In this document: positions 1,909 through 10,811 of the stretch, piece after piece | Numbering within the stretch: position 1 is the stretch's first letter | Layout of the letters: every line of letters begins with the position of its first letter | The notes under the pieces: generated by a model | What the model was told of the DNA's origin: nothing | The model's database searches: none | The model's input: only the letters and a program-made list of their open reading frames with translations | Made by a program: the position numbers and the translations under genes | Source: a virus | Reading direction: 5' to 3' (one strand) | Length of the DNA stretch: 64,000 bases | Virus record (IMG/VR): IMGVR_UViG_3300025151_004231 | Coordinates: 1-64,000 of that record

Positions 1909-2052
1909 ATGGAAGCAGTAAAAGAATCAAAGCCAACACAAAAAGGTAGATTTTGGTGTCATATCAGAAAGGACTTTTTTAGTTGGGACGAACTCATCGC
2001 ATATTACAGAATGTGCGATTTAATTGAAAAACAAAATCAAAGAAAGGGCTAA
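1909..2052 (+). CDS. small hypothetical protein (47 aa)
   Basis: AAGGAA SD plus ATG, read manually (MEAVKESKPTQKGRFWCHIRK...). Confidence 0.55.
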   Translation: MEAVKESKPTQKGRFWCHIRKDFFSWDELIAYYRMCDLIEKQNQRKG

Positions 2053-2054
2053 TT

Positions 2055-2369
2055 ATGACAATAATGACTCCGGATCAAAATTGGACTGATGAAGAATGGA
2101 ACAGTTTTAGATCACAAGTGAAAGATGTACTCGTTAAGGATATTGTAGAAGTTACTTTTACAAAAATCAACGGCGATGAACGTGTGATGACATGCACACT
2201 ACATCCTGACAATTTACCTAAGCCAGTTATCAAAGAAGGCGAAGACAAGAAAGAAAGGGTAATTAAGAATCCTGAAAACAGTCTTGCTGTATTTGATATG
2301 AAAGCAGAAGGTTGGAGAAGTTTTGTAATAAGGAATATCAAATCAGTCAATACAAGCCCGCGCCTGTAA
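2055..2369 (+). CDS. WYL-like/Sm-like SH3-fold phage protein
   Basis: VTFTKING.ERVMTCTL...VFDM...WRSF pattern typical of T4-like phages; stop codon lies inside the first tRNA. Confidence 0.7.
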   Translation: MTIMTPDQNWTDEEWNSFRSQVKDVLVKDIVEVTFTKINGDERVMTCTLHPDNLPKPVIKEGEDKKERVIKNPENSLAVFDMKAEGWRSFVIRNIKSVNTSPRL

Positions 2370-2436
2370 CTCAGTTGGATAGAGTACCTGGCTACGAACC
2401 AGGAAGTCGGAGGTTCGAATCCTTCCAGGCGCGCCA
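2360..2436 (+). tRNA. tRNA-Arg(ACG)
   Basis: acceptor GCGCCTG/CAGGCGC, anticodon arm CCTGG-CTACGAA-CCAGG, GTTCGAATC, encoded CCA. Confidence 0.95.
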
Positions 2437-2469
2437 AGTTCAATCAACGTAAGGAAACAAAAAGTTTAA

Positions 2470-2545
2470 CCGCTCTTAGTTCAGTGGATAGAACAACTGC
2501 CTTCTAAGCAGTAGGTCCCAGGTTCGAATCCTGGAGGGCGGGCCA
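2470..2545 (+). tRNA. tRNA-Arg(TCT)
   Basis: acceptor CCGCTCT/AGGGCGG, arm ACTGC-CTTCTAA-GCAGT, CCA. Confidence 0.95.
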
Positions 2546-2549
2546 GTTT

Positions 2550-2624
2550 GGGGTACGGCTAGAACAACACTAGCCTCAACCGGATGCTTGAGACATGCAA
2601 ATCCTGTCACTCTGCCCCTCCCCA
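2550..2624 (+). ncRNA. non-canonical tRNA-like RNA ending in CCA
   Basis: tRNA-sized, GC-rich, between tRNAs; stems GGCTAG/CTAGCC, TCAA/TTGA, GACA/TGTC with a TGCAAATC T-loop-like segment; GGGGTA/TGCCCC closing stem. Confidence 0.5.
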
Positions 2625-2629
2625 TAAAT

Positions 2630-2706
2630 GGGCCTATAGCATAACTGGTTAATGCAACCGACTCATAATCGGTAGAGTCTAGGTTCAAGTCCTAGTGGGC
2701 CCACCA
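2630..2706 (+). tRNA. tRNA with CAT anticodon (probably Ile2/lysidine, otherwise elongator Met)
   Basis: GGGCCTA/TGGGCCC acceptor, ACCGA-CTCATAA-TCGGT, CCA; no initiator GGG/CCC anticodon stem. Confidence 0.9.
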
Positions 2707-2713
2707 AAAAAAT

Positions 2714-2787
2714 AGGCGACTAGTGTAACGGTAGCACGGGACTCTCCAAAAGTTCTAGTCGGGGTTCAAATCCCTGGTCGTCTGCCA
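2714..2787 (+). tRNA. tRNA-Trp(CCA)
   Basis: AGGCGAC/GTCGTCT acceptor, CT-CCA-AA loop, GTTCAAATC, CCA. Confidence 0.92.
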
Positions 2788-2803
2788 ACTTTAGGAGAAG
2801 AAA

Positions 2804-2968
2804 ATGAAAATATTCAAAAGAAGGGTGTATAAATTTAGCAATCAGTGGACGCACGAAAAAACTATTTACTTGCTTCCGTCAGTCTCTATCAGTATGCATG
2901 AGTATTGCTTAGACATTTCGTTTTTGTGTTTTAAGTTTTACACATTTGTGGAGTACAAATATGGCTAA
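2804..2968 (+). CDS. small hypothetical protein (54 aa)
   Basis: AGGAGA SD plus ATG, read manually. Confidence 0.55.
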   Translation: MKIFKRRVYKFSNQWTHEKTIYLLPSVSISMHEYCLDISFLCFKFYTFVEYKYG

Positions 2969-3143
2969 GAAAAAAGAAAGGATCCCCTTGAAGGGAGGGG
3001 ACGAATTTGATGCTCTTACTACGGCTCGTAAGTATTATGTTTATCTAACTCGTTCCGGTGTTGCAAAAAAGATTAAACAGCAATACAACAAACGTTTTAG
3101 AAAGAAACAAAAACAAGACATCAAAAAAGATTTGGGCACATGA
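2961..3143 (+). CDS. small basic hypothetical phage protein
   Basis: GGAG SD before ATG 2961; Lys/Arg-rich. Confidence 0.65.
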   Translation: MAKKKERIPLKGGDEFDALTTARKYYVYLTRSGVAKKIKQQYNKRFRKKQKQDIKKDLGT

Positions 3144-3180
3144 AAATGTGTAGGTCATTGAAATCCCAATAAATATTAGT

Positions 3181-4116
3181 ATGCAAAAAGTAGAACATAT
3201 TGATATTACTAAATTGGATTTAACAGACTACGTTGAGTCGTTAAAGAACACATCTTTCTCGTCCAGAGAAATTTACAATGCTTGTCAAATCTATAAAGAT
3301 ATGATAGATGATCCTGACTGTACAATCATCTTAACGATTGCAGGATCAACGCAAGCCGCTGGTTGTCTTCAACTATACAGAGACCTAGTCAAATATAAAA
3401 TGGTTGACATTATAGTTGCAACTGGTGCTAGTGTTATTGATATGGATTTGTATGAAGCCTTAGGTTTTCATCATTACATCGGCACATCAAAAGTTGATGA
3501 CAATGAACTGAGAGAACAGGGTATTGATAGAATCTATGACACTTATATCTATGAAGAAGACTTAAAGAAAGTCGATCAATATATTTGCGACATTGCAACT
3601 GATTATGGTGAACCCAAGCCACAAAGTTCTAGTGAATTCTTGCATCTACTAGGAGAAAAGACTCCAAACAGTTTAGTAAATGAATGTTATAAAGCAAACG
3701 TACCTATCTTTTGTCCTGCTCTAAACGATAGTGCCGCAGGGTTCGGACTATTGAAACATAAAGTTGAAAATGAACGCCATGTTATTATAGATAGTGTACA
3801 AGACTTGAAAGAATTGACAGAGTTAAAGATTCAAGCAAAGAGTACAGGTCTGTTTATGATTGGCGGCGGAGTTCCAAAAAACTTTGCACAAGATATTGTA
3901 GTAGCGGCAGAAATGTTAGGGCATGACGTTCCGTTGCACAAATATGCCATACAGTTTACAGTAGCAGATGTAAGAGACGGTGCATGTAGCAGTAGTACAT
4001 TAGACGAAGCAAACAGTTGGGGTAAAGTTAGTGATCAAGCAACACAAATGGTATATGGAGAGGCCAGTAGTATCTTACCAATTGTCGCAAATTATGCATA
4101 CGTTAATAAAAAATGA
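3181..4116 (+). CDS. deoxyhypusine synthase-like protein (SpeY/homospermidine pathway)
   Basis: GIDRIYD, FCPALNDS, IGGGVPKNF, DGACSSSTLDEANSWGKV (catalytic Lys retained). Confidence 0.9.
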   Translation: MQKVEHIDITKLDLTDYVESLKNTSFSSREIYNACQIYKDMIDDPDCTIILTIAGSTQAAGCLQLYRDLVKYKMVDIIVATGASVIDMDLYEALGFHHYIGTSKVDDNELREQGIDRIYDTYIYEEDLKKVDQYICDIATDYGEPKPQSSSEFLHLLGEKTPNSLVNECYKANVPIFCPALNDSAAGFGLLKHKVENERHVIIDSVQDLKELTELKIQAKSTGLFMIGGGVPKNFAQDIVVAAEMLGHDVPLHKYAIQFTVADVRDGACSSSTLDEANSWGKVSDQATQMVYGEASSILPIVANYAYVNKK

Positions 4117-4865
4117 ACTTCTTAGGAGTTGAATCTCACTCGTATGAAGACTGCAATGTACTTGTAGTCCCGTATGGCAATGAAGATAATGTATCTTATG
4201 GTACTGGTACTTTATATGGACCTCAAGCCATTATACGTGCTAGTCAAGAGGTAGAACTACATCCGTATCCTGATAATTTAAAAATACACACGTTATCGAA
4301 AACAAACGATCTCAGTCAAACTGTTAAACAAGCAAAACAAGACGGCAAGTTTGTAATGATATTAGGCGGAGATCATAGTCTAACATCACATGCTTACCAG
4401 CATTACAACACAGATATTATACAGTTTGATGCTCATTGCGATTTAAGAGATAGTTATTTAGGTAATCCACAAAGTCATGCTTGTGCAATGCGTAGATGTA
4501 TGGAACTAAATGAAGATACAAATCTTTATAGTTTTGGTATACGCAACATGAGCAAAAGTGAAGATAAGTATATTCAACAAAACATACACAGAATATACAG
4601 AGACGTTACACCAAAAGGAAAGGAACTATATCTAACGTTTGATGTTGATGCGTTTGACGTATCAATTATGCCTGCAACAGGGACTCCAGAACCGGGAGGA
4701 TTGTTATGGGAAGAAACGATAGAATTAATTAAGGCAGTCTGTAAACAAAACACGATTGTAGCAGTAGACATAGTTGAACTTGCACCGATTAAACATATGC
4801 CGGCATATGATTTTGTTGTCGCAAAACTATGTTACACCATTTTACAAGAACTATTTAAAAGGTAA
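4113..4865 (+). CDS. speB: agmatinase/ureohydrolase
   Basis: GGDHS, DAHCD, SHA, DVDAFD, TGTPEPGG motifs. Confidence 0.9.
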   Translation: MNFLGVESHSYEDCNVLVVPYGNEDNVSYGTGTLYGPQAIIRASQEVELHPYPDNLKIHTLSKTNDLSQTVKQAKQDGKFVMILGGDHSLTSHAYQHYNTDIIQFDAHCDLRDSYLGNPQSHACAMRRCMELNEDTNLYSFGIRNMSKSEDKYIQQNIHRIYRDVTPKGKELYLTFDVDAFDVSIMPATGTPEPGGLLWEETIELIKAVCKQNTIVAVDIVELAPIKHMPAYDFVVAKLCYTILQELFKR

Positions 4866-4869
4866 AAAT

Positions 4870-5259
4870 ATGGAAAAAGTTGTTCCAGAACACAAGCACC
4901 TCATTATTCGTGCTGAAATTAAAAATGCTCCCAAAGATCCTGATTGGGTAAAAGAGTGGTTATCATCGTTAGTAGATAAAATTGATATGAAAATATGTAG
5001 TGGTCCACATACAGCATATGTAGATATTCCAGGTAACTCAGGCGTGACTGGCGTTGTAGTTATTGAAACAAGTCACATTGCAGTTCATGTATGGGACGAG
5101 CCCGACCCTGCACTATTTCAATTAGATGTTTATACATGTGGACCTTTTGATATGGATGTTATTTTTGATGACATTGATCAATTTAATCCATCTAAGGTAG
5201 AATGGAAATACTTAGATAGAGAACACGGACTGAACGAAGTGAGTAAATCTACCCAATAA
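4870..5259 (+). CDS. speD: pyruvoyl-dependent S-adenosylmethionine decarboxylase-family proenzyme
   Basis: GVTGVVVIETSHIAVHVW...LDVYTCG; start moved to ATG 4870; substrate uncertain. Confidence 0.8.
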   Translation: MEKVVPEHKHLIIRAEIKNAPKDPDWVKEWLSSLVDKIDMKICSGPHTAYVDIPGNSGVTGVVVIETSHIAVHVWDEPDPALFQLDVYTCGPFDMDVIFDDIDQFNPSKVEWKYLDREHGLNEVSKSTQ

Positions 5260-5346: not shown

Positions 5347-5964
5347 ATGAAGCAGACTCTAATAAAAGCCTGTGTGTTAGTTTTGATGGTATTTAGTATA
5401 TCAAAACTAATCGAACCCAACCCAGCACCTACACCCCAGGTGCAATATGTTCAACCCCAATGGTACAAAAAACCTGAAGTCGTCATTATCGAAGTTCCGG
5501 TACGTGAGTATAAGATAGTTGAAGAAGACATGAAACCTCAAGTTGTCGTTGTGGATAACTCTGAAATGGTGTATGAAGATATAGACGTATTCTGTCTAGC
5601 AAAAAATATCTTCCATGAAGCAGGTACTGAGCCAGATATTGGTAAGTATGCTGTTGCTCAAGTCACTCTTAATCGTGTAGCAAGTCGTAAATATCCCAAT
5701 ACTGTCTGTAAAGTAGTACTAGACAGATATCAGTTTTCATGGGCAAATCAAAGGAACCGACACTGGACACGCCCAAAAGGACCTAATTGGGATAGATCAT
5801 ACGAGATTGCTCAACAAGTCATGGGTGAAGGACATCGTGTAAAAGGACTAGAAAACTCCAGATATTATCACGCAGACTATGTAAATCCACATTGGAATCG
5901 CAAAATGAGGCAAGTGGCCACTGTAGGTAGGCATATTTTTTACACAAATGATGCAATCTATTGA
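5347..5964 (+). CDS. SleB-like cell wall hydrolase (Hydrolase_2) with N-terminal anchor
   Basis: CLAKNIFHEA, VAQVTLNRV, YPNTVCKVV, QFSW, YYHADYVNPHW, GRHIFY. Confidence 0.9.
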   Translation: MKQTLIKACVLVLMVFSISKLIEPNPAPTPQVQYVQPQWYKKPEVVIIEVPVREYKIVEEDMKPQVVVVDNSEMVYEDIDVFCLAKNIFHEAGTEPDIGKYAVAQVTLNRVASRKYPNTVCKVVLDRYQFSWANQRNRHWTRPKGPNWDRSYEIAQQVMGEGHRVKGLENSRYYHADYVNPHWNRKMRQVATVGRHIFYTNDAIY

Positions 5965-8420: not shown

Positions 8421-10811
8421 TTAACTTACTCCAGTGCCGCTAATAAACCATGTATCAGTGTCAACTTTCATTAATGTAGCAACTCCATATGTTGAAATTA
8501 CTCTGTTTCCTGCAGTTGAATTACCTGCTTGATAAAGAGTTACACCAGAGATAGCATTAACTAGAATGTTACCTGCGGCTTGCTCAACAATACTGATTGC
8601 TGTTCCTGTTGGGAACGCAACAGTTGCGTTTGTAGGAATCGATAATGTAATGTTTCCTGCTGTTGTTGATCTGAAATGTTTACCTGAATCTTCAAGTGCG
8701 ATTGTATCATCTGCTGATAATACGACCGGGGGAATTTCTTTATAACCTATTGCAAATCCGTTTGTGTTTGCATTGATGTTTCCACCTGCAATGTTTCCTG
8801 TTACAGTTAAGTCTACTAAAGTACCGAGACTAGTAATGTTTGGCTGTGCGGCTGTTGTTACAGTACCTGCTGTTGTTGCAGTAGTTGCTGTAACTGGTCC
8901 CCATGAGCCTGTACCATCTAAATAGTTTGCTGTATTACCATCTAAGTTGACTGTTGCAATATTACCTGCACCAGATACATTTGCGATAGCAACACTATTA
9001 GCAACTGCGGCAAATCCAACTTCACCTGATACATTAGCACCGACTACGTTAGAAATGCTTCCACCGTCTCCAGCAAATACACCTGCAGAAACTGTGATGT
9101 CACCTGTGTTTGCTGTCAAGCCTACTGATACGATTGTGTTACTAACAAGTAGTTCTGATAAAGTACCAACAGATCCGATATTTGGTTGTGCTGAATTGAT
9201 TACTTCTTGTGCAAGAACTGCTGTATTAATTGTTCCAGTTACGTTAGCGCCTGCGATATTTGATAAACCGCCACCATCGCCTGTAATTAATCCAGTAGTT
9301 GTAATTGCATTTGAACCAAATGCATTTAATAAAGTAACAACGTTTGAATCACCGTATGAACCACCACCTGGTGCCGCGGCGAATACACCGTTACCATATA
9401 GTACGTTGCCGGCTGCTCCGTCAATATCGATTGACGCAATGTTACCTGCTCCTGATACGTTTGCTAAAGCAACTGAGTTAGCAACTGCGGCAAATCCGAC
9501 TTCACCACTTACGTTAGCACCTGTAATGTTTGATAATTGATAACCGTCTCCAGTTAATGCTGGACTCGTTGCGGCCGCAAACACTCCATTACCATATAAG
9601 ACATTAGCGGCATCACCGTCAATGTTAATTGTTGAAATATTACCTAAAGTAGGTGTACCTGAAACATTTGCATAAGCAACTGCGTTTGCTGTTGCGGCAA
9701 AAGTAACTTCACCAGAGACATTTGCTCCGGCTACTGAGTTAGAAACTGCTGAGAATCCGACTTCACCACTTACGTTAGCACCTGCTACTGCATTTGCTGT
9801 AGCGGCGTTTGTGACTTCTCCTGATACATTAGCACCAGCAACTGCGTTAGCAGTAGCCGCGAATGATACTTCGCCAGAGACATTAGCACCTGTAAGGTTT
9901 GCTATTTGATATCCGTCACCAGTTAATGCAGGAGATGCGGCTGCCGCAAATACTCCATTACCGTATAATACATTTGATGCCGATCCATCAATATCGAGTG
10001 TTGAAATGTTACCTAATGTAGGTGTACCTGTTACGTTTGCATATGGTACGTTTGATAGTCCGCCACCGTCAGCAGTGACTAGACCTGTTGTTGTAATTGT
10101 GTTTGATCCGAATGCATTTAATAGAGTAACAACATTGCTGTCTCCATATGCAGTATCTGAATCTGCGGCAAATGTTCCGTCTCCTCTTAGTACATTAGAG
10201 ACGTTACCGTCTAAGTTAAGAGGGGAAACATTACCTAGTGTAGGTGTACCAGTTATGTTTGCGTAAACAACGTTTGATATTCCACCTGCATCACCTGTAA
10301 TAATGCCTGTTGCATTTAATGTTCCAGTTACATTAGCACCAGTACTAGTTACGATTAATACATCTGCTGTGCCACCAACTCCTACAGTTACGTTACCATC
10401 TGTTGTGGGGATATCAACATTTGATGTACCGTCTGTAATACTTGTTGCGGCTCCTGCTGGAACGTTTGTTAAGTTTGCTCCGTCACCCGCAAAGTATGCG
10501 GCAGTAACTGCTGTAGTTGCATTGATGTTTCCTGCATCTAAGTTTCCTGTGACGTTTGCACTTGTCAGATTTCCTACTGAAGTAATGTTTGGTTGAGCGG
10601 CGTTTGTTACATCTCCTGCAAGAGTTGCAACTGCGGCTGGTACAAAGTTACTTCCACCTGCTTCTGATAGAATCAAATTTCCAAGTAATTGTACTGTTGA
10701 TTTCTTTGTTTCAGGTGTCCCATTCATGTCTACAACGGCTACTAAGTCATTGTAGGTCATGTTTGCACTTGTTATATCTGAAAGTGCTGTAATTTTGATG
10801 TTTGTTGCCAT
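8421..10811 (-). CDS. long repeat-rich tail fibre/virion structural protein
   Basis: Gly/Ala/Asn/Thr-rich; repeats GANVSGEVxFAAxANxVA, GDGGGLSN, LYGNGVFAAA, AAQPNITS; late promoter upstream. Confidence 0.7.
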   Translation of the reverse strand: MATNIKITALSDITSANMTYNDLVAVVDMNGTPETKKSTVQLLGNLILSEAGGSNFVPAAVATLAGDVTNAAQPNITSVGNLTSANVTGNLDAGNINATTAVTAAYFAGDGANLTNVPAGAATSITDGTSNVDIPTTDGNVTVGVGGTADVLIVTSTGANVTGTLNATGIITGDAGGISNVVYANITGTPTLGNVSPLNLDGNVSNVLRGDGTFAADSDTAYGDSNVVTLLNAFGSNTITTTGLVTADGGGLSNVPYANVTGTPTLGNISTLDIDGSASNVLYGNGVFAAAASPALTGDGYQIANLTGANVSGEVSFAATANAVAGANVSGEVTNAATANAVAGANVSGEVGFSAVSNSVAGANVSGEVTFAATANAVAYANVSGTPTLGNISTINIDGDAANVLYGNGVFAAATSPALTGDGYQLSNITGANVSGEVGFAAVANSVALANVSGAGNIASIDIDGAAGNVLYGNGVFAAAPGGGSYGDSNVVTLLNAFGSNAITTTGLITGDGGGLSNIAGANVTGTINTAVLAQEVINSAQPNIGSVGTLSELLVSNTIVSVGLTANTGDITVSAGVFAGDGGSISNVVGANVSGEVGFAAVANSVAIANVSGAGNIATVNLDGNTANYLDGTGSWGPVTATTATTAGTVTTAAQPNITSLGTLVDLTVTGNIAGGNINANTNGFAIGYKEIPPVVLSADDTIALEDSGKHFRSTTAGNITLSIPTNATVAFPTGTAISIVEQAAGNILVNAISGVTLYQAGNSTAGNRVISTYGVATLMKVDTDTWFISGTGVS

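What the first reader, a model, noticed from the sequence alone, without database searches (positions are those of the whole stretch)
2550..2624. Non-canonical tRNA-like RNA embedded in the tRNA array
Seen: a 75-nt GC-rich element between tRNA-Arg(TCT) and tRNA-CAT, spaced like a tRNA (4-5 nt gaps) and ending in CCA. It folds into a cloverleaf-like shape: closing stem GGGGTA/TGCCCC, a 6-bp arm GGCTAG/CTAGCC, an arm (C)TCAA/TTGA(G) with an 8-nt loop CCGGATGC, and GACA/TGTC around TGCAAATCC. It lacks the D-loop GG, U33 and the TTC motif. Inference: a tRNA mimic released by tRNA processing, perhaps a decoy for anticodon nucleases or a Y-RNA/T4 species-I-like stable RNA.
Basis: partly seen in the sequence, partly recalled or inferred. 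Interest (0 to 1): 0.7.

Follow-up and report, generated by a model that had tools for sequence, protein, structure and literature searches.

The report
Conserved non-tRNA RNA in phage tRNA row
A 74-base folded RNA gene that is not a tRNA sits in one slot of this large marine phage's tRNA row; it belongs to an uncatalogued RNA family of large uncultured phages and resembles the long-unexplained "stable RNAs" of phage T4 and T5 tRNA clusters.

Summary
The element is real. It lies at 2550-2623 (+), 4 nt after tRNA-Arg(UCU) and 6 nt before tRNA-Met. ARAGORN and Rfam at E<=10 call nothing there.

It is not a decayed tRNA. Pattern scans plus a covariance model found homologs in uncultured phage and metagenome contigs, giving 18 distinct sequences.
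- Three helices keep pairing through many double changes: the closing stem, a variable hairpin that mostly ends in a GNRA tetraloop, and a 4-bp stem with a conserved 9-nt loop.
A 2-bp helix that stacks the closing stem on the last arm fits better.
- The terminal CCA is not conserved (10 of 22 rows).
- Diverged members lie outside tRNA arrays.

There is one copy per record. None was found in cultured phages or in 80 bacterial loci. RNA-library contigs from three studies bridge tRNA-Arg, the element and tRNA-Met.

Best reading: a discrete, non-decoding stable small RNA, cut out with the tRNAs, whose partner is unknown. It is a positional analogue of T4 RNAD/RNAC. The decoy and ribozyme readings remain untested.

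The parts
2470..2545 (+). tRNA-Arg(TCT), the upstream neighbour. The element follows it after 4 nt in every array-borne copy.
   Evidence: ARAGORN, Rfam tRNA 70.2 bits, rows.
2550..2623 (+). The whole element ('X'), a 74-nt structured RNA gene with no tRNA call.
   Evidence: Covariance model R1 scores 106.6 bits here, and this is the only match in the 128-kb record. No ARAGORN or Rfam call.
2550..2555 (+). P1, 5' strand of the closing stem (GGGGTA). It pairs with 2613-2618.
   Evidence: 6 pairs, 100% of cells paired, 3 pairs with double-sided changes. Seven different stem versions are seen.
2557..2575 (+). P2, a variable hairpin. Here it is a 6-bp stem with a 7-nt A-rich loop.
   Evidence: 4 of 6 pairs have double-sided changes. 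8 of 9 distinct versions are longer and end in a GNRA tetraloop.
2576..2589 (+). A conserved 14-nt joining region that contains CGGATGC.
   Evidence: The P3 pair at alignment columns 50-61 is broken in 7 of 18, and P3 has no double-sided change. The sequence is nearly invariant, although part of that invariance is imposed by the search patterns used.
2590..2591 (+). Ha, a 2-bp helix (GA) pairing with 2611-2612 (TC). It would stack P1 on P4.
   Evidence: Columns 63-83 are A-U in 12 rows and G-C in 6. Columns 62-84 are G-C in all 18. Cells are 100% paired.
2592..2608 (+). P4, a 4-bp stem (GACA/TGTC) with a conserved 9-nt loop (TGCAAATCC, 2596-2604).
   Evidence: 3 of 4 pairs have double-sided changes, in three stem versions.
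2609..2612 (+). Linker ACTC between P4 and P1. In the alternative model this is a 2-nt bulge (2609-2610) followed by the 3' strand of Ha.
2613..2618 (+). P1, 3' strand (TGCCCC).
2619..2623 (+). A C-rich 3' tail (TCCCC). I infer that it marks the mature 3' end.
   Evidence: A C-run follows P1 in all 22 complete close-group rows and in 4 of 7 diverged lineages. U-rich tracts follow P1 in the other three.
2630..2706 (+). tRNA-Met(CAT), the downstream neighbour in this phage.

Best explanation
X is the gene of a discrete, non-decoding, tRNA-sized stable RNA. It belongs to an RNA family of large uncultured phages that is not in Rfam.

Its fold is a junction of three helices:
- a closing stem, P1;
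- a variable hairpin, P2, usually capped by a GNRA tetraloop;
- a short stem, P4, capped by a conserved 9-nt loop.
These are joined by a conserved 14-nt strand. P1, a 2-bp helix (Ha) and P4 probably stack into a helix of about 12 bp.

In this phage X occupies one slot of the tRNA array and is transcribed with the tRNAs. I infer that the host's tRNA-maturation enzymes free it. RNase P would cut at its 5' G and at the next tRNA, and 3' trimming would stop in the C-run just after P1. In other lineages a promoter or a U-rich tract sets the ends instead.

The nearly invariant junction and loop point to binding of a specific conserved partner, protein or RNA, rather than to decoding. The partner and the biological effect are unknown. 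X is the counterpart, by position and kind, of T4 RNAD/RNAC.

Shown here: the structure, the strand, the conservation, the copy number, the contexts, and the presence of the element in RNA-library contigs. Inferred: the processing route, the stability of the RNA, and the existence of a partner.
For: Not a tRNA:
- Default ARAGORN of 18 distinct members.
- No Rfam family reaches E<=10, or E<=5 for five diverged loci.

Structure under selection:
- 99.4% of cells pair, 12 pairs have double-sided changes, and 0 of 500 shuffles reach the covariation score.
- 18 cells are G-U pairs, which would be A-C on the other strand.

Constraint beyond the helices:
- In contig L027 the only similarity to this genome is 160 nt of tRNA-Arg plus X.
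- Within that stretch X is 69/74 identical, while the tRNA is only 58/79 identical.
- In L040 the 5' half is 15/30 identical, but the core is 36/37.

A self-contained module:
- There is one copy per record.
- Contexts vary: tRNA arrays, just after a stop codon, or just after a promoter-like site.
- P1 is always followed by a C-run or a U-rich tract.

Expression:
- Contigs from RNA libraries of three studies bridge tRNA-Arg, X and tRNA-Met (records 5, 13 and 21), or bridge tRNA-Arg and X (record 26). Their depth is 11-34.

Precedent:
- In T4, tRNA-Arg is followed 1 nt later by rnaD and then rnaC.
- The T5 tRNA region has 8 annotated stable RNAs of unknown function.
- Passages in PMC3014915 and PMC9697503 state that the roles of T4 RNAC and RNAD are unknown.
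Against: - No RNA ends were seen. The RNA evidence consists of assembled contigs, which cannot show ends, strand or level, and RNA libraries can contain DNA.
- The bridging contigs show an uncut precursor or DNA, not a released RNA.
- RNase P cleavage and the trimming stop rest on recalled enzymology, not on any call.
- The base before P1 is U in the close group but C or A in four diverged lineages.
- No sequence or model similarity to T4 RNAC/RNAD or to the T5 stable RNAs was found, so that analogy is positional only.
- Two close relatives (L005, L006) lack X at this site, and it was not found elsewhere in their held contigs. It is therefore dispensable or replaceable.
- The invariance of two core blocks is partly imposed by my search patterns.
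Confidence: 0.5

Rival explanations
1. A new small self-cleaving ribozyme, or another catalytic RNA, that processes phage transcripts, as theta (HDV-like) ribozymes do beside phage tRNAs.
For: - The architecture is what small ribozymes show: covarying stems around nearly invariant junction and loop nucleotides, with a GNRA-capped peripheral hairpin.
- Its genomic contexts in phages are scattered, including a tRNA array.
- Theta ribozymes are known next to phage tRNAs (PMC10879173, passages read).
Against: - No known ribozyme family matches at E<=10.
- The covariation-supported topology, with the 5' end paired to the 3' end and enclosing two hairpins, is not the nested double pseudoknot of HDV-like ribozymes (checked by hand). 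It is also not hatchet's four stems, which the paper describes as linked by bulges (PMC4604424, passages).
- RNA-library contigs span both borders of X uncut, although this is weak evidence.
- No cleavage test was possible.
Confidence: 0.12
2. A cis-acting transcript element: a structured terminator or anti-terminator, a 3'-end stabiliser, or a riboswitch-like leader.
For: - In diverged members P1 is followed by U-rich tracts (L065, L077, L076, L060), and then by a promoter-like site or by a ribosome-binding site and ATG.
- In L070 a promoter-like site ends a few bases before P1, and an ORF starts about 27 nt after the element.
Against: - In the close group it sits between tRNAs with no U-tract.
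- The flanking genes differ from lineage to lineage, which does not fit a riboswitch.
- A single copy per record and a nearly invariant 37-nt core are more than a terminator needs.
Confidence: 0.15
3. A tRNA mimic that acts as a decoy or competitor for a tRNA-binding factor, such as an anticodon nuclease, RNase P, the CCA-adding enzyme or a modification enzyme.
For: - P1, Ha and P4 can stack to about 12 bp, the length of the acceptor/T-arm helix. This is inferred.
- The 9-nt loop begins with a U..A pentamer that fits the T-loop motif as I recall it.
- With filters off, the model's only weak hits in T4 and T5 are real tRNAs, at 6-14 bits.
Against: - There is no conserved anticodon-like loop, since the arm in question lacks support.
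- The CCA is not conserved.
- No tRNA model hit was obtained.
- Similarity to the neighbouring tRNAs is not significant (p >= 0.076).
- Relaxed ARAGORN calls disagree with one another in strand and anticodon.
Confidence: 0.1
4. A decayed or highly unusual tRNA gene: a pseudo-tRNA, or an aminoacylated non-canonical tRNA.
For: - It has the size and spacing of a tRNA and sits in an array slot.
- It is gained and lost like the neighbouring tRNA cassettes.
Against: - It is more conserved than the adjacent tRNA.
- The family extends outside tRNA arrays.
- The P2 loop varies from 4 to 7 nt.
- It lacks U33, a 7-nt anticodon loop, GG, TTC and a conserved CCA.
- ARAGORN of 18 members.
Confidence: 0.03
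5. A DNA-level element, such as an attachment or recombination site, or a miniature mobile element with inverted ends.
For: - Precise presence/absence variants exist. L005 and L006 lack it, and one RNA-run contig joins 2545 to 2630 with 5 other letters in between.
- Short ATT repeats flank it in some rows.
Against: - It is single-copy.
- G-U pairs make the structure strand-specific.
- Covariation maintains helices rather than sequence.
- None was found in 80 bacterial loci, and the exact 20-mer has 0 matches in genome contigs.
Confidence: 0.03

Closest known systems
Phage T4 stable RNAs RNAD (species 2, 119 nt) and RNAC (species 1, 139 nt)
   Same: - They lie in the tRNA region of a T4-type phage, directly 3' of tRNA-Arg. 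In T4 the gap is 1 nt and here it is 4 nt.
- They are small and non-decoding.
- Their function is unknown (PMC3014915 and PMC9697503, passages).
   Different: - No sequence similarity was found (local alignment p = 0.72 and 0.076), and there is no covariance-model hit.
- The lengths differ.
- RNAC carries a canonical T arm (seen), which X does not.
- X also occurs outside tRNA clusters.
Phage T5 stable RNAs of the tRNA region (RNA1, RNA2, RNA3, RNAI, RNAIII, RNAIV, RNA2H, RNAX)
   Same: They are annotated as stable or tRNA-like RNAs of unknown function, interleaved with tRNA genes. RNA3 is 73 nt and abuts tRNA-Asn.
   Different: No model match to any of them was found. With filters off, only real tRNAs score, and weakly. 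The phage group is also different.
tRNA (Rfam RF00005)
   Same: It has the size, the array slot, the spacing and a closing stem. The RNAalifold consensus has four helices like a cloverleaf.
   Different: - It has no D-loop GG, no U33 or 7-nt anticodon loop, no TTC and no conserved CCA.
- The 4-nt linker lies after the last arm instead of before it.
- There is no Rfam or default ARAGORN call.
Theta (minimal HDV-like) ribozymes beside phage tRNAs
   Same: They are small structured RNAs lying within a few nucleotides of phage tRNA genes (PMC10879173, passages).
   Different: X lacks the nested double-pseudoknot order of strands, because its 5' end pairs with its 3' end. No HDV-family Rfam hit was obtained. 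Cleavage was not tested.

Membership tests
tRNA | Detected by tRNA finders or by the Rfam tRNA model. | tested here: not met
   ARAGORN at default calls nothing at 2546-2629 and 0 of 18 family members. Rfam RF00005 gives no hit at E<=10.
tRNA | An anticodon arm with a 5-bp stem and a 7-nt loop containing U33. | tested here: not met
   The candidate arm has an 8-nt loop without U33. Its stem has a pair broken in 7 of 18 members and no compensatory change.
tRNA | A conserved 3' NCCA end, either encoded as in the four neighbouring tRNAs or added later. | tested here: not met
   CCA follows the tail in 10 of 22 complete close-group rows and in none of the diverged tails. Post-transcriptional addition is not testable here.
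tRNA | D-loop GG and a T-loop TTC closed by a G-C pair. | tested here: not met
   The first arm's loop is AACAACA here and a GNRA tetraloop in 8 of 9 distinct versions. The last loop is 9 nt and begins TGC.
T4 RNAC/RNAD | Sequence or structure homology to rnaC or rnaD. | tested here: not met
   No R1 hit on the T4 region at the rnaC or rnaD coordinates. Alignment scores lie within the shuffled range.
T4 RNAC/RNAD | Position directly downstream of tRNA-Arg in the tRNA cluster. | tested here: met
   In T4 the order on one strand is tRNA-Arg 71173-71247, rnaD 71053-71171, rnaC 70908-71046. Here tRNA-Arg ends at 2545 and X starts at 2550.
T4 RNAC/RNAD | A stable RNA species processed out of the tRNA precursor. 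| not testable with these tools
   Only assembled RNA-library contigs were available. They bridge the borders of X but cannot show ends.
HDV-like / theta ribozyme | A nested double pseudoknot, in which the P1 3' strand directly follows P3 and the P2 3' strand lies at the 3' end. | tested here: not met
   Covariation pairs the 5' end with the 3' end around two hairpins. No HDV-family hit was obtained.
Known small self-cleaving ribozymes (hammerhead, twister, twister-sister, pistol, hatchet) | A match to the family's Rfam covariance model. | tested here: not met
   No such hit at E<=10 on the window element or on L048, and none at E<=5 on five diverged loci.
Y RNA / YrlA | A Ro60 (TROVE) partner gene and the Y-RNA fold. 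| tested here: inconclusive
   No TROVE match in the 128-kb record, which is estimated to be 37% complete. No Rfam Y-RNA hit.

The most novel reading that the evidence does not exclude
X is the founding member of a new class of compact functional RNA of large marine phages. It could be a new small self-cleaving ribozyme. Alternatively it could be a mimic of the tRNA 'top half', made of a helix of about 12 bp with a T-loop-like cap and a GG-bearing strand, that captures a conserved host tRNA-handling or defence factor. If so, it would give a first mechanistic handle on the decades-old puzzle of the stable RNAs in T4 and T5 tRNA clusters.
Probability: 0.15. Interest if true: 0.85.

Novelty: new variant of a known kind. 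Interest (0 to 1): 0.5.

Why it matters
Non-tRNA stable RNAs inside phage tRNA clusters have been known in T4 and T5 for about fifty years without a function. That dating is my recollection.

This family is small, at about 74 nt. It has a clear covariation-supported architecture and a sharply conserved core, and it is spread over several lineages of large uncultured phages. That makes it a tractable object for in-vitro tests, such as RNase P cleavage, self-cleavage and protein pull-down.

It also shows that a slot in a phage tRNA array can hold an RNA that is under stronger constraint than the tRNA beside it. Annotation pipelines skip such slots.

I found no description of it in print in my searches. 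It may be one of the 8,495 unnamed IMG/VR candidates of PMC10690425, whose supplementary tables I could not open.

Tried and rejected
**Ideas dropped**
- The second C-run as an alternative partner for the 5' G-run. It looked conserved in the close group and in L040, but diverged members lack it.
- Trans-antisense target in the phage's own genome. The longest complement to the 37-nt core is 11 nt, which is the mode among 200 shuffles. The host is unknown, so host targets could not be tested. A duplex-energy scan timed out.
- tRNA origin. A 9-mer and a 7-mer are shared with tRNA-Arg(TCT), but alignment scores are not above shuffles (p = 0.076).
- Minus-strand suppressor tRNA (TCA). It is called only at a 60-80% ARAGORN threshold, with mismatches and no U33. 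The TCA is absent in diverged members.
- Micro-ORF. One frame is open across X here, but P2 indels shift the frame, and the substitutions follow pairing rather than codons.
- Resemblances that I noticed and did not pursue as evidence, all resting on recalled motifs and seen only in some lineages: the two loop halves to a tRNA-Cys anticodon stem-loop, a MotA-box-like TGCTT, a CsrA-like GGA loop, and an 8-mer shared with 16S rRNA.

**Searches that found nothing**
- A loop-loop pairing (GGAT with AYCC) cannot be tested, because both blocks were fixed by my patterns. The majority C at the Y position would give an A-C mismatch.
- RNA-repair or partner genes (TROVE, RtcB, CCA-adding enzyme, RNA ligase): none in the 128-kb fragment. 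This is not informative at 37% completeness.
- Cultured phages: no match for X or for three diverged members.
- Bacterial genomes: 0 exact 20-mers, and 0 of 80 pattern loci fit the model.
- Pattern hits L031, L046, L051, L052, 34 of the 42 loci scanned, and all 80 loci are chance matches and were dropped.

**Other**
- Parts of 2000-3200 that are not covered in some RNA runs are not interpreted.
- The column pair 61-81 (U-A in 13, C-G in 5) covaries but cannot sit in the same helix as Ha. It remains unexplained and may reflect a single evolutionary event.

Full report
**1. The observation**

The window is the first half of a 128-kb IMG/VR virus record that CheckV estimates to be 37% complete.
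- ARAGORN finds four tRNA genes on the + strand: Arg(ACG) 2360-2436, Arg(TCT) 2470-2545, Met(CAT) 2630-2706 and Trp(CCA) 2714-2787. These are the only tRNAs in the whole record.
  - G-rich 5' end at 2550.
  - Closing stem 2550-2555 with 2613-2618.
  - A 6-bp arm, 2557-2562 with 2570-2575.
  - TCAA/TTGA, 2576-2579 with 2588-2591, around an 8-nt loop.
  - GACA/TGTC, 2592-2595 with 2605-2608, around a 9-nt loop.
  - CCA at 2622-2624.
- The element's G+C is 56.8%, against 37.1% for the window.
- No Rfam family matches it at E<=10, although the four tRNAs score 55-72 bits in the same search.
- Thermodynamics alone says little. The + strand folds at -22.1 kcal/mol with z = -1.85. The - strand folds at -30.1 kcal/mol with z = -2.71.
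- With thresholds lowered to 60%, ARAGORN proposes a minus-strand tRNA with anticodon TCA. That call has acceptor mismatches and no U33.

**2. Homologs**

- *Close relatives.* The protein encoded just upstream (2055-2369) retrieved 23 related IMG/VR loci. Of the five close relatives, L002-L004 carry the element after tRNA-Arg(TCT), and L005 and L006 end the array at that tRNA.
- *Exact sub-strings.* Four exact or near-exact sub-string patterns each hit the same five IMG/VR contigs. A fifth pattern hit those five plus two chance loci, L051 and L052.
- *Metagenomes.* A 20-mer found 21 metagenome loci, of which 19 are true and 2 are chance. Two of the true ones are informative. L039 and L040 (identical to L048) keep the 3' half almost unchanged but have a completely different first arm. 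L040 also has a changed closing stem.
- *Looser pattern.* A pattern that fixes only the two conserved loop blocks gave 44 IMG/VR stretches. I built a covariance model from 12 sequences. It accepted 8 of the 42 new loci at E<=1e-5: L065 (identical to L071), L076, L060, L078 (identical to L089), L070 and L077.
- *Bacterial genomes.* The same pattern was run against bacterial genomes, and none of the 80 loci listed there fits the model. The exact 20-mer has no match there either.
- *Cultured phages.* No match was found for the window element or for three diverged members.
- *Final alignment.* The final model-fitted alignment has 20 rows, of which 18 are distinct.

**3. Structure**

I then counted pairs on the 18 distinct rows.

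| Helix | Cells paired | Pairs with double-sided changes | Versions seen |
|---|---|---|---|
| P1, closing stem | 100% | 3 of 6 | 7 |
| P2, first arm | 98.1% | 4 of 6 | 9 distinct |
| P4, last arm | 100% | 3 of 4 | 3 |

- P3 has one pair broken in 7 of 18 rows.
- I replaced P3 with a 2-bp helix, Ha (2590-2591 with 2611-2612). This gave 99.4% of cells paired and one compensatory pair, A-U in 12 rows and G-C in 6.
- In both models none of 500 shuffles reaches the covariation score. Structures slid by 1-3 columns pair in only 27-49% of cells.
- These counts come from an alignment fitted to the model, which favours the model's own helices. The Ha columns contain no gaps.
- With Ha, helices P1, Ha and P4 can stack into about 12 bp, interrupted by a 2-nt bulge. 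This stacking is an inference.
- P2 is peripheral. Eight of its nine distinct versions are 5-9-bp hairpins ending in GNRA (GUAA six times, GCAA once, GUGA once). The window's group instead has a 6-bp stem with a 7-nt A-rich loop.
- Eighteen cells are G-U pairs, which would be A-C on the other strand. The element also always lies in the orientation of the neighbouring genes or tRNAs. The + strand RNA is therefore the functional form.
- One further column pair covaries: 61-81, U-A in 13 rows and C-G in 5. It cannot be placed in the same helix as Ha, and I leave it unexplained.

**4. It is neither a tRNA nor a decayed one**

- Default ARAGORN of the 18 members. The relaxed calls disagree with one another in strand and anticodon.
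- CCA follows the tail in only 10 of the 22 complete rows of the close group.
- Similarity to the four neighbouring tRNAs is within the shuffled range.
- The element is under stronger constraint than a tRNA. Contig L027 shares nothing with this genome at the DNA level except 160 nt of tRNA-Arg plus the element. Within that stretch the element is 69/74 identical, and the tRNA is only 58/79 identical.
- In L040 the 5' half is 15/30 identical, while the 37-column core is 36/37.
- Part of the core's invariance in the more distant members was imposed by my search patterns. The positions outside those blocks are free, and they are still conserved or covary.

**5. Contexts**

- In the close group the element always follows tRNA-Arg(TCT) by 4 nt. 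It is itself followed by tRNA-Met, by tRNA-Trp or by non-tRNA sequence.
- The seven diverged lineages carry it without any adjacent tRNA.
  - In L048 it lies 6 nt after the stop codon of a 48-codon ORF.
  - In L076 it lies just after a stop codon and just before a DnaB-like helicase gene.
  - In L070 it lies a few bases after a promoter-like site and about 27 nt before an ORF.
  - In L060 and L078 it lies just before a promoter-like site.
  - In L065 and L077 it is followed at once by a run of T.
- P1 is always followed either by a C-run or by a U-rich tract. All 22 close-group rows, L040, L060, L078 and L070 have the C-run. L065, L077 and L076 have the U-rich tract.
- I read this as two ways of fixing a 3' end just past P1. 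A U-rich tract would do it by termination. A C-run would stop 3' exonuclease trimming, as I recall for RNase T. Both points rest on recalled enzymology and were not tested.
- There is one copy per record: the own record, three other holders and six more.
- Among 20 records related through the upstream protein, none has the element. Among 22 unrelated phage records, none has a true match.
- By their CheckV completeness, the holders are fragments of large genomes.

**6. Expression**

- Twenty public runs hold part of 2000-3200, and six of them are on record as RNA.
- I laid the Logan contigs of four RNA runs on the stretch. These come from three studies.
  - Three contigs bridge tRNA-Arg, the element and tRNA-Met: 2494-2678 at depth 26, 2485-2707 at depth 17, and 2516-2687 at depth 11.
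  - One contig covers 2507-2618 at depth 34.
- This fits co-transcription. However, contigs cannot show ends or strand, and RNA libraries can contain DNA.
- One contig joins 2545 to 2630 with five other letters in between. That is a variant without the element.

**7. What it most likely is**

- The best-supported reading is a discrete, non-decoding stable RNA gene. It occupies a tRNA slot in this lineage, is transcribed with the tRNAs, and is freed by the tRNA-maturation machinery. Its conserved junction and loop would bind a specific partner.
- The closest precedent is phage T4. There tRNA-Arg is followed 1 nt later by rnaD and then rnaC, whose roles are still unknown (PMC3014915 and PMC9697503, passages).
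- The T5 tRNA region carries eight annotated stable RNAs of unknown function.
- There is no sequence or model homology to any of these, so the relation is one of kind and position, not of family.
- With filters off, the only weak matches of my model in T4 and T5 are real tRNAs, at 6-14 bits. This is a faint sign that the overall shape is tRNA-like.

**8. Rivals**

- *New self-cleaving ribozyme.* The architecture suits this reading. No known class matches, and the topology excludes HDV-like and hatchet folds. No cleavage test was possible.
- *Cis-regulatory or terminator role.* This fits some diverged contexts but not the tRNA-array copies.
- *DNA-level element.* The G-U pairs and the single-copy status argue against this.

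**9. A lead for a partner**

- The upstream ORF is a Pfam WYL_2 protein with an Sm-like SH3 barrel fold.
- A WYL_2 gene lies in 7 of the 14 element-bearing records searched, plus 1 weak match. In the lineages where I located both, it lies within 0.2-2.3 kb of the element. None was found in 22 unrelated records.
- However, 20 WYL_2-bearing relatives lack the element, and the unrelated records are not a fair control. This is therefore only a lead.

**10. Novelty**

- I found no description of this RNA in my literature searches. It is not in Rfam 15.
- A 2023 catalogue of 8,495 unnamed IMG/VR candidate RNAs (PMC10690425, passages read) may include it.
- Earlier notes of this scan describe other non-decoding RNAs in phage tRNA rows. 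They are different sequences (one search found no look-alike), and I used them only as context.

Noticed in passing
window 2055-2369 (+): The ORF directly upstream of the tRNA array is a Pfam WYL_2 protein with an Sm-like SH3 barrel fold (42.8 bits). A WYL_2 gene lies in 7 of 14 element-bearing records, plus 1 weak match, and in 0 of 22 unrelated phage records. However, 20 WYL_2 relatives lack the element. It is a possible RNA-binding partner, and this was not tested.
   Followed up: partly
window 3181-5259 (+): Three adjacent polyamine-pathway genes: a deoxyhypusine-synthase family gene (297.7 bits), an arginase/agmatinase family gene (160.4 bits) and an S-adenosylmethionine decarboxylase (57 bits). 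Together they look like an auxiliary metabolic cluster in a phage.
   Followed up: partly
window 2360-2790; L002-L006, L003:3300-3560: The tRNA array evolves by gain and loss of cassettes. Met is present or absent, Trp is present or absent, the element is present or absent, and L003 has a partial tandem duplication of tRNA-Arg(ACG). RNA-run contigs show variants that skip 2546-2629 or 2708-2789.
   Followed up: partly
L039:1-140 (-): In one low-coverage metagenome contig the element is preceded by a remnant of tRNA-Arg(ACG). The remnant keeps only the two acceptor strands around a short loop, forming a minihelix that ends in CCA. This may be an assembly artefact.
   Followed up: no
window 8421-10811 (-): A 796-aa ORF built of many near-repeats of a motif of about 20-30 residues (GANVSGEV...FAA...), presumably a fibre protein. 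It was not analysed.
   Followed up: no
L065:3905-4025 (+): In the L065 lineage a promoter-like site and an 80-nt hairpin-rich leader precede the element, and a run of six T followed by a ribosome-binding site and ATG come after it. This arrangement resembles an attenuator.
   Followed up: no
alignment A5, columns 61 and 81 (window 2589 and 2609): These two positions covary perfectly, U-A in 13 rows and C-G in 5, yet they cannot be placed in one helix together with the neighbouring supported pairs. This could be a tertiary contact or a single phylogenetic event.
   Followed up: partly
window 5347-5964; L027:5550-6113; L078 (2883-3383, -): A cell-wall hydrolase (Pfam Hydrolase_2, PHROG endolysin) lies about 2.5-2.8 kb downstream of the element in three otherwise divergent lineages. 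This suggests a conserved neighbourhood.
   Followed up: partly
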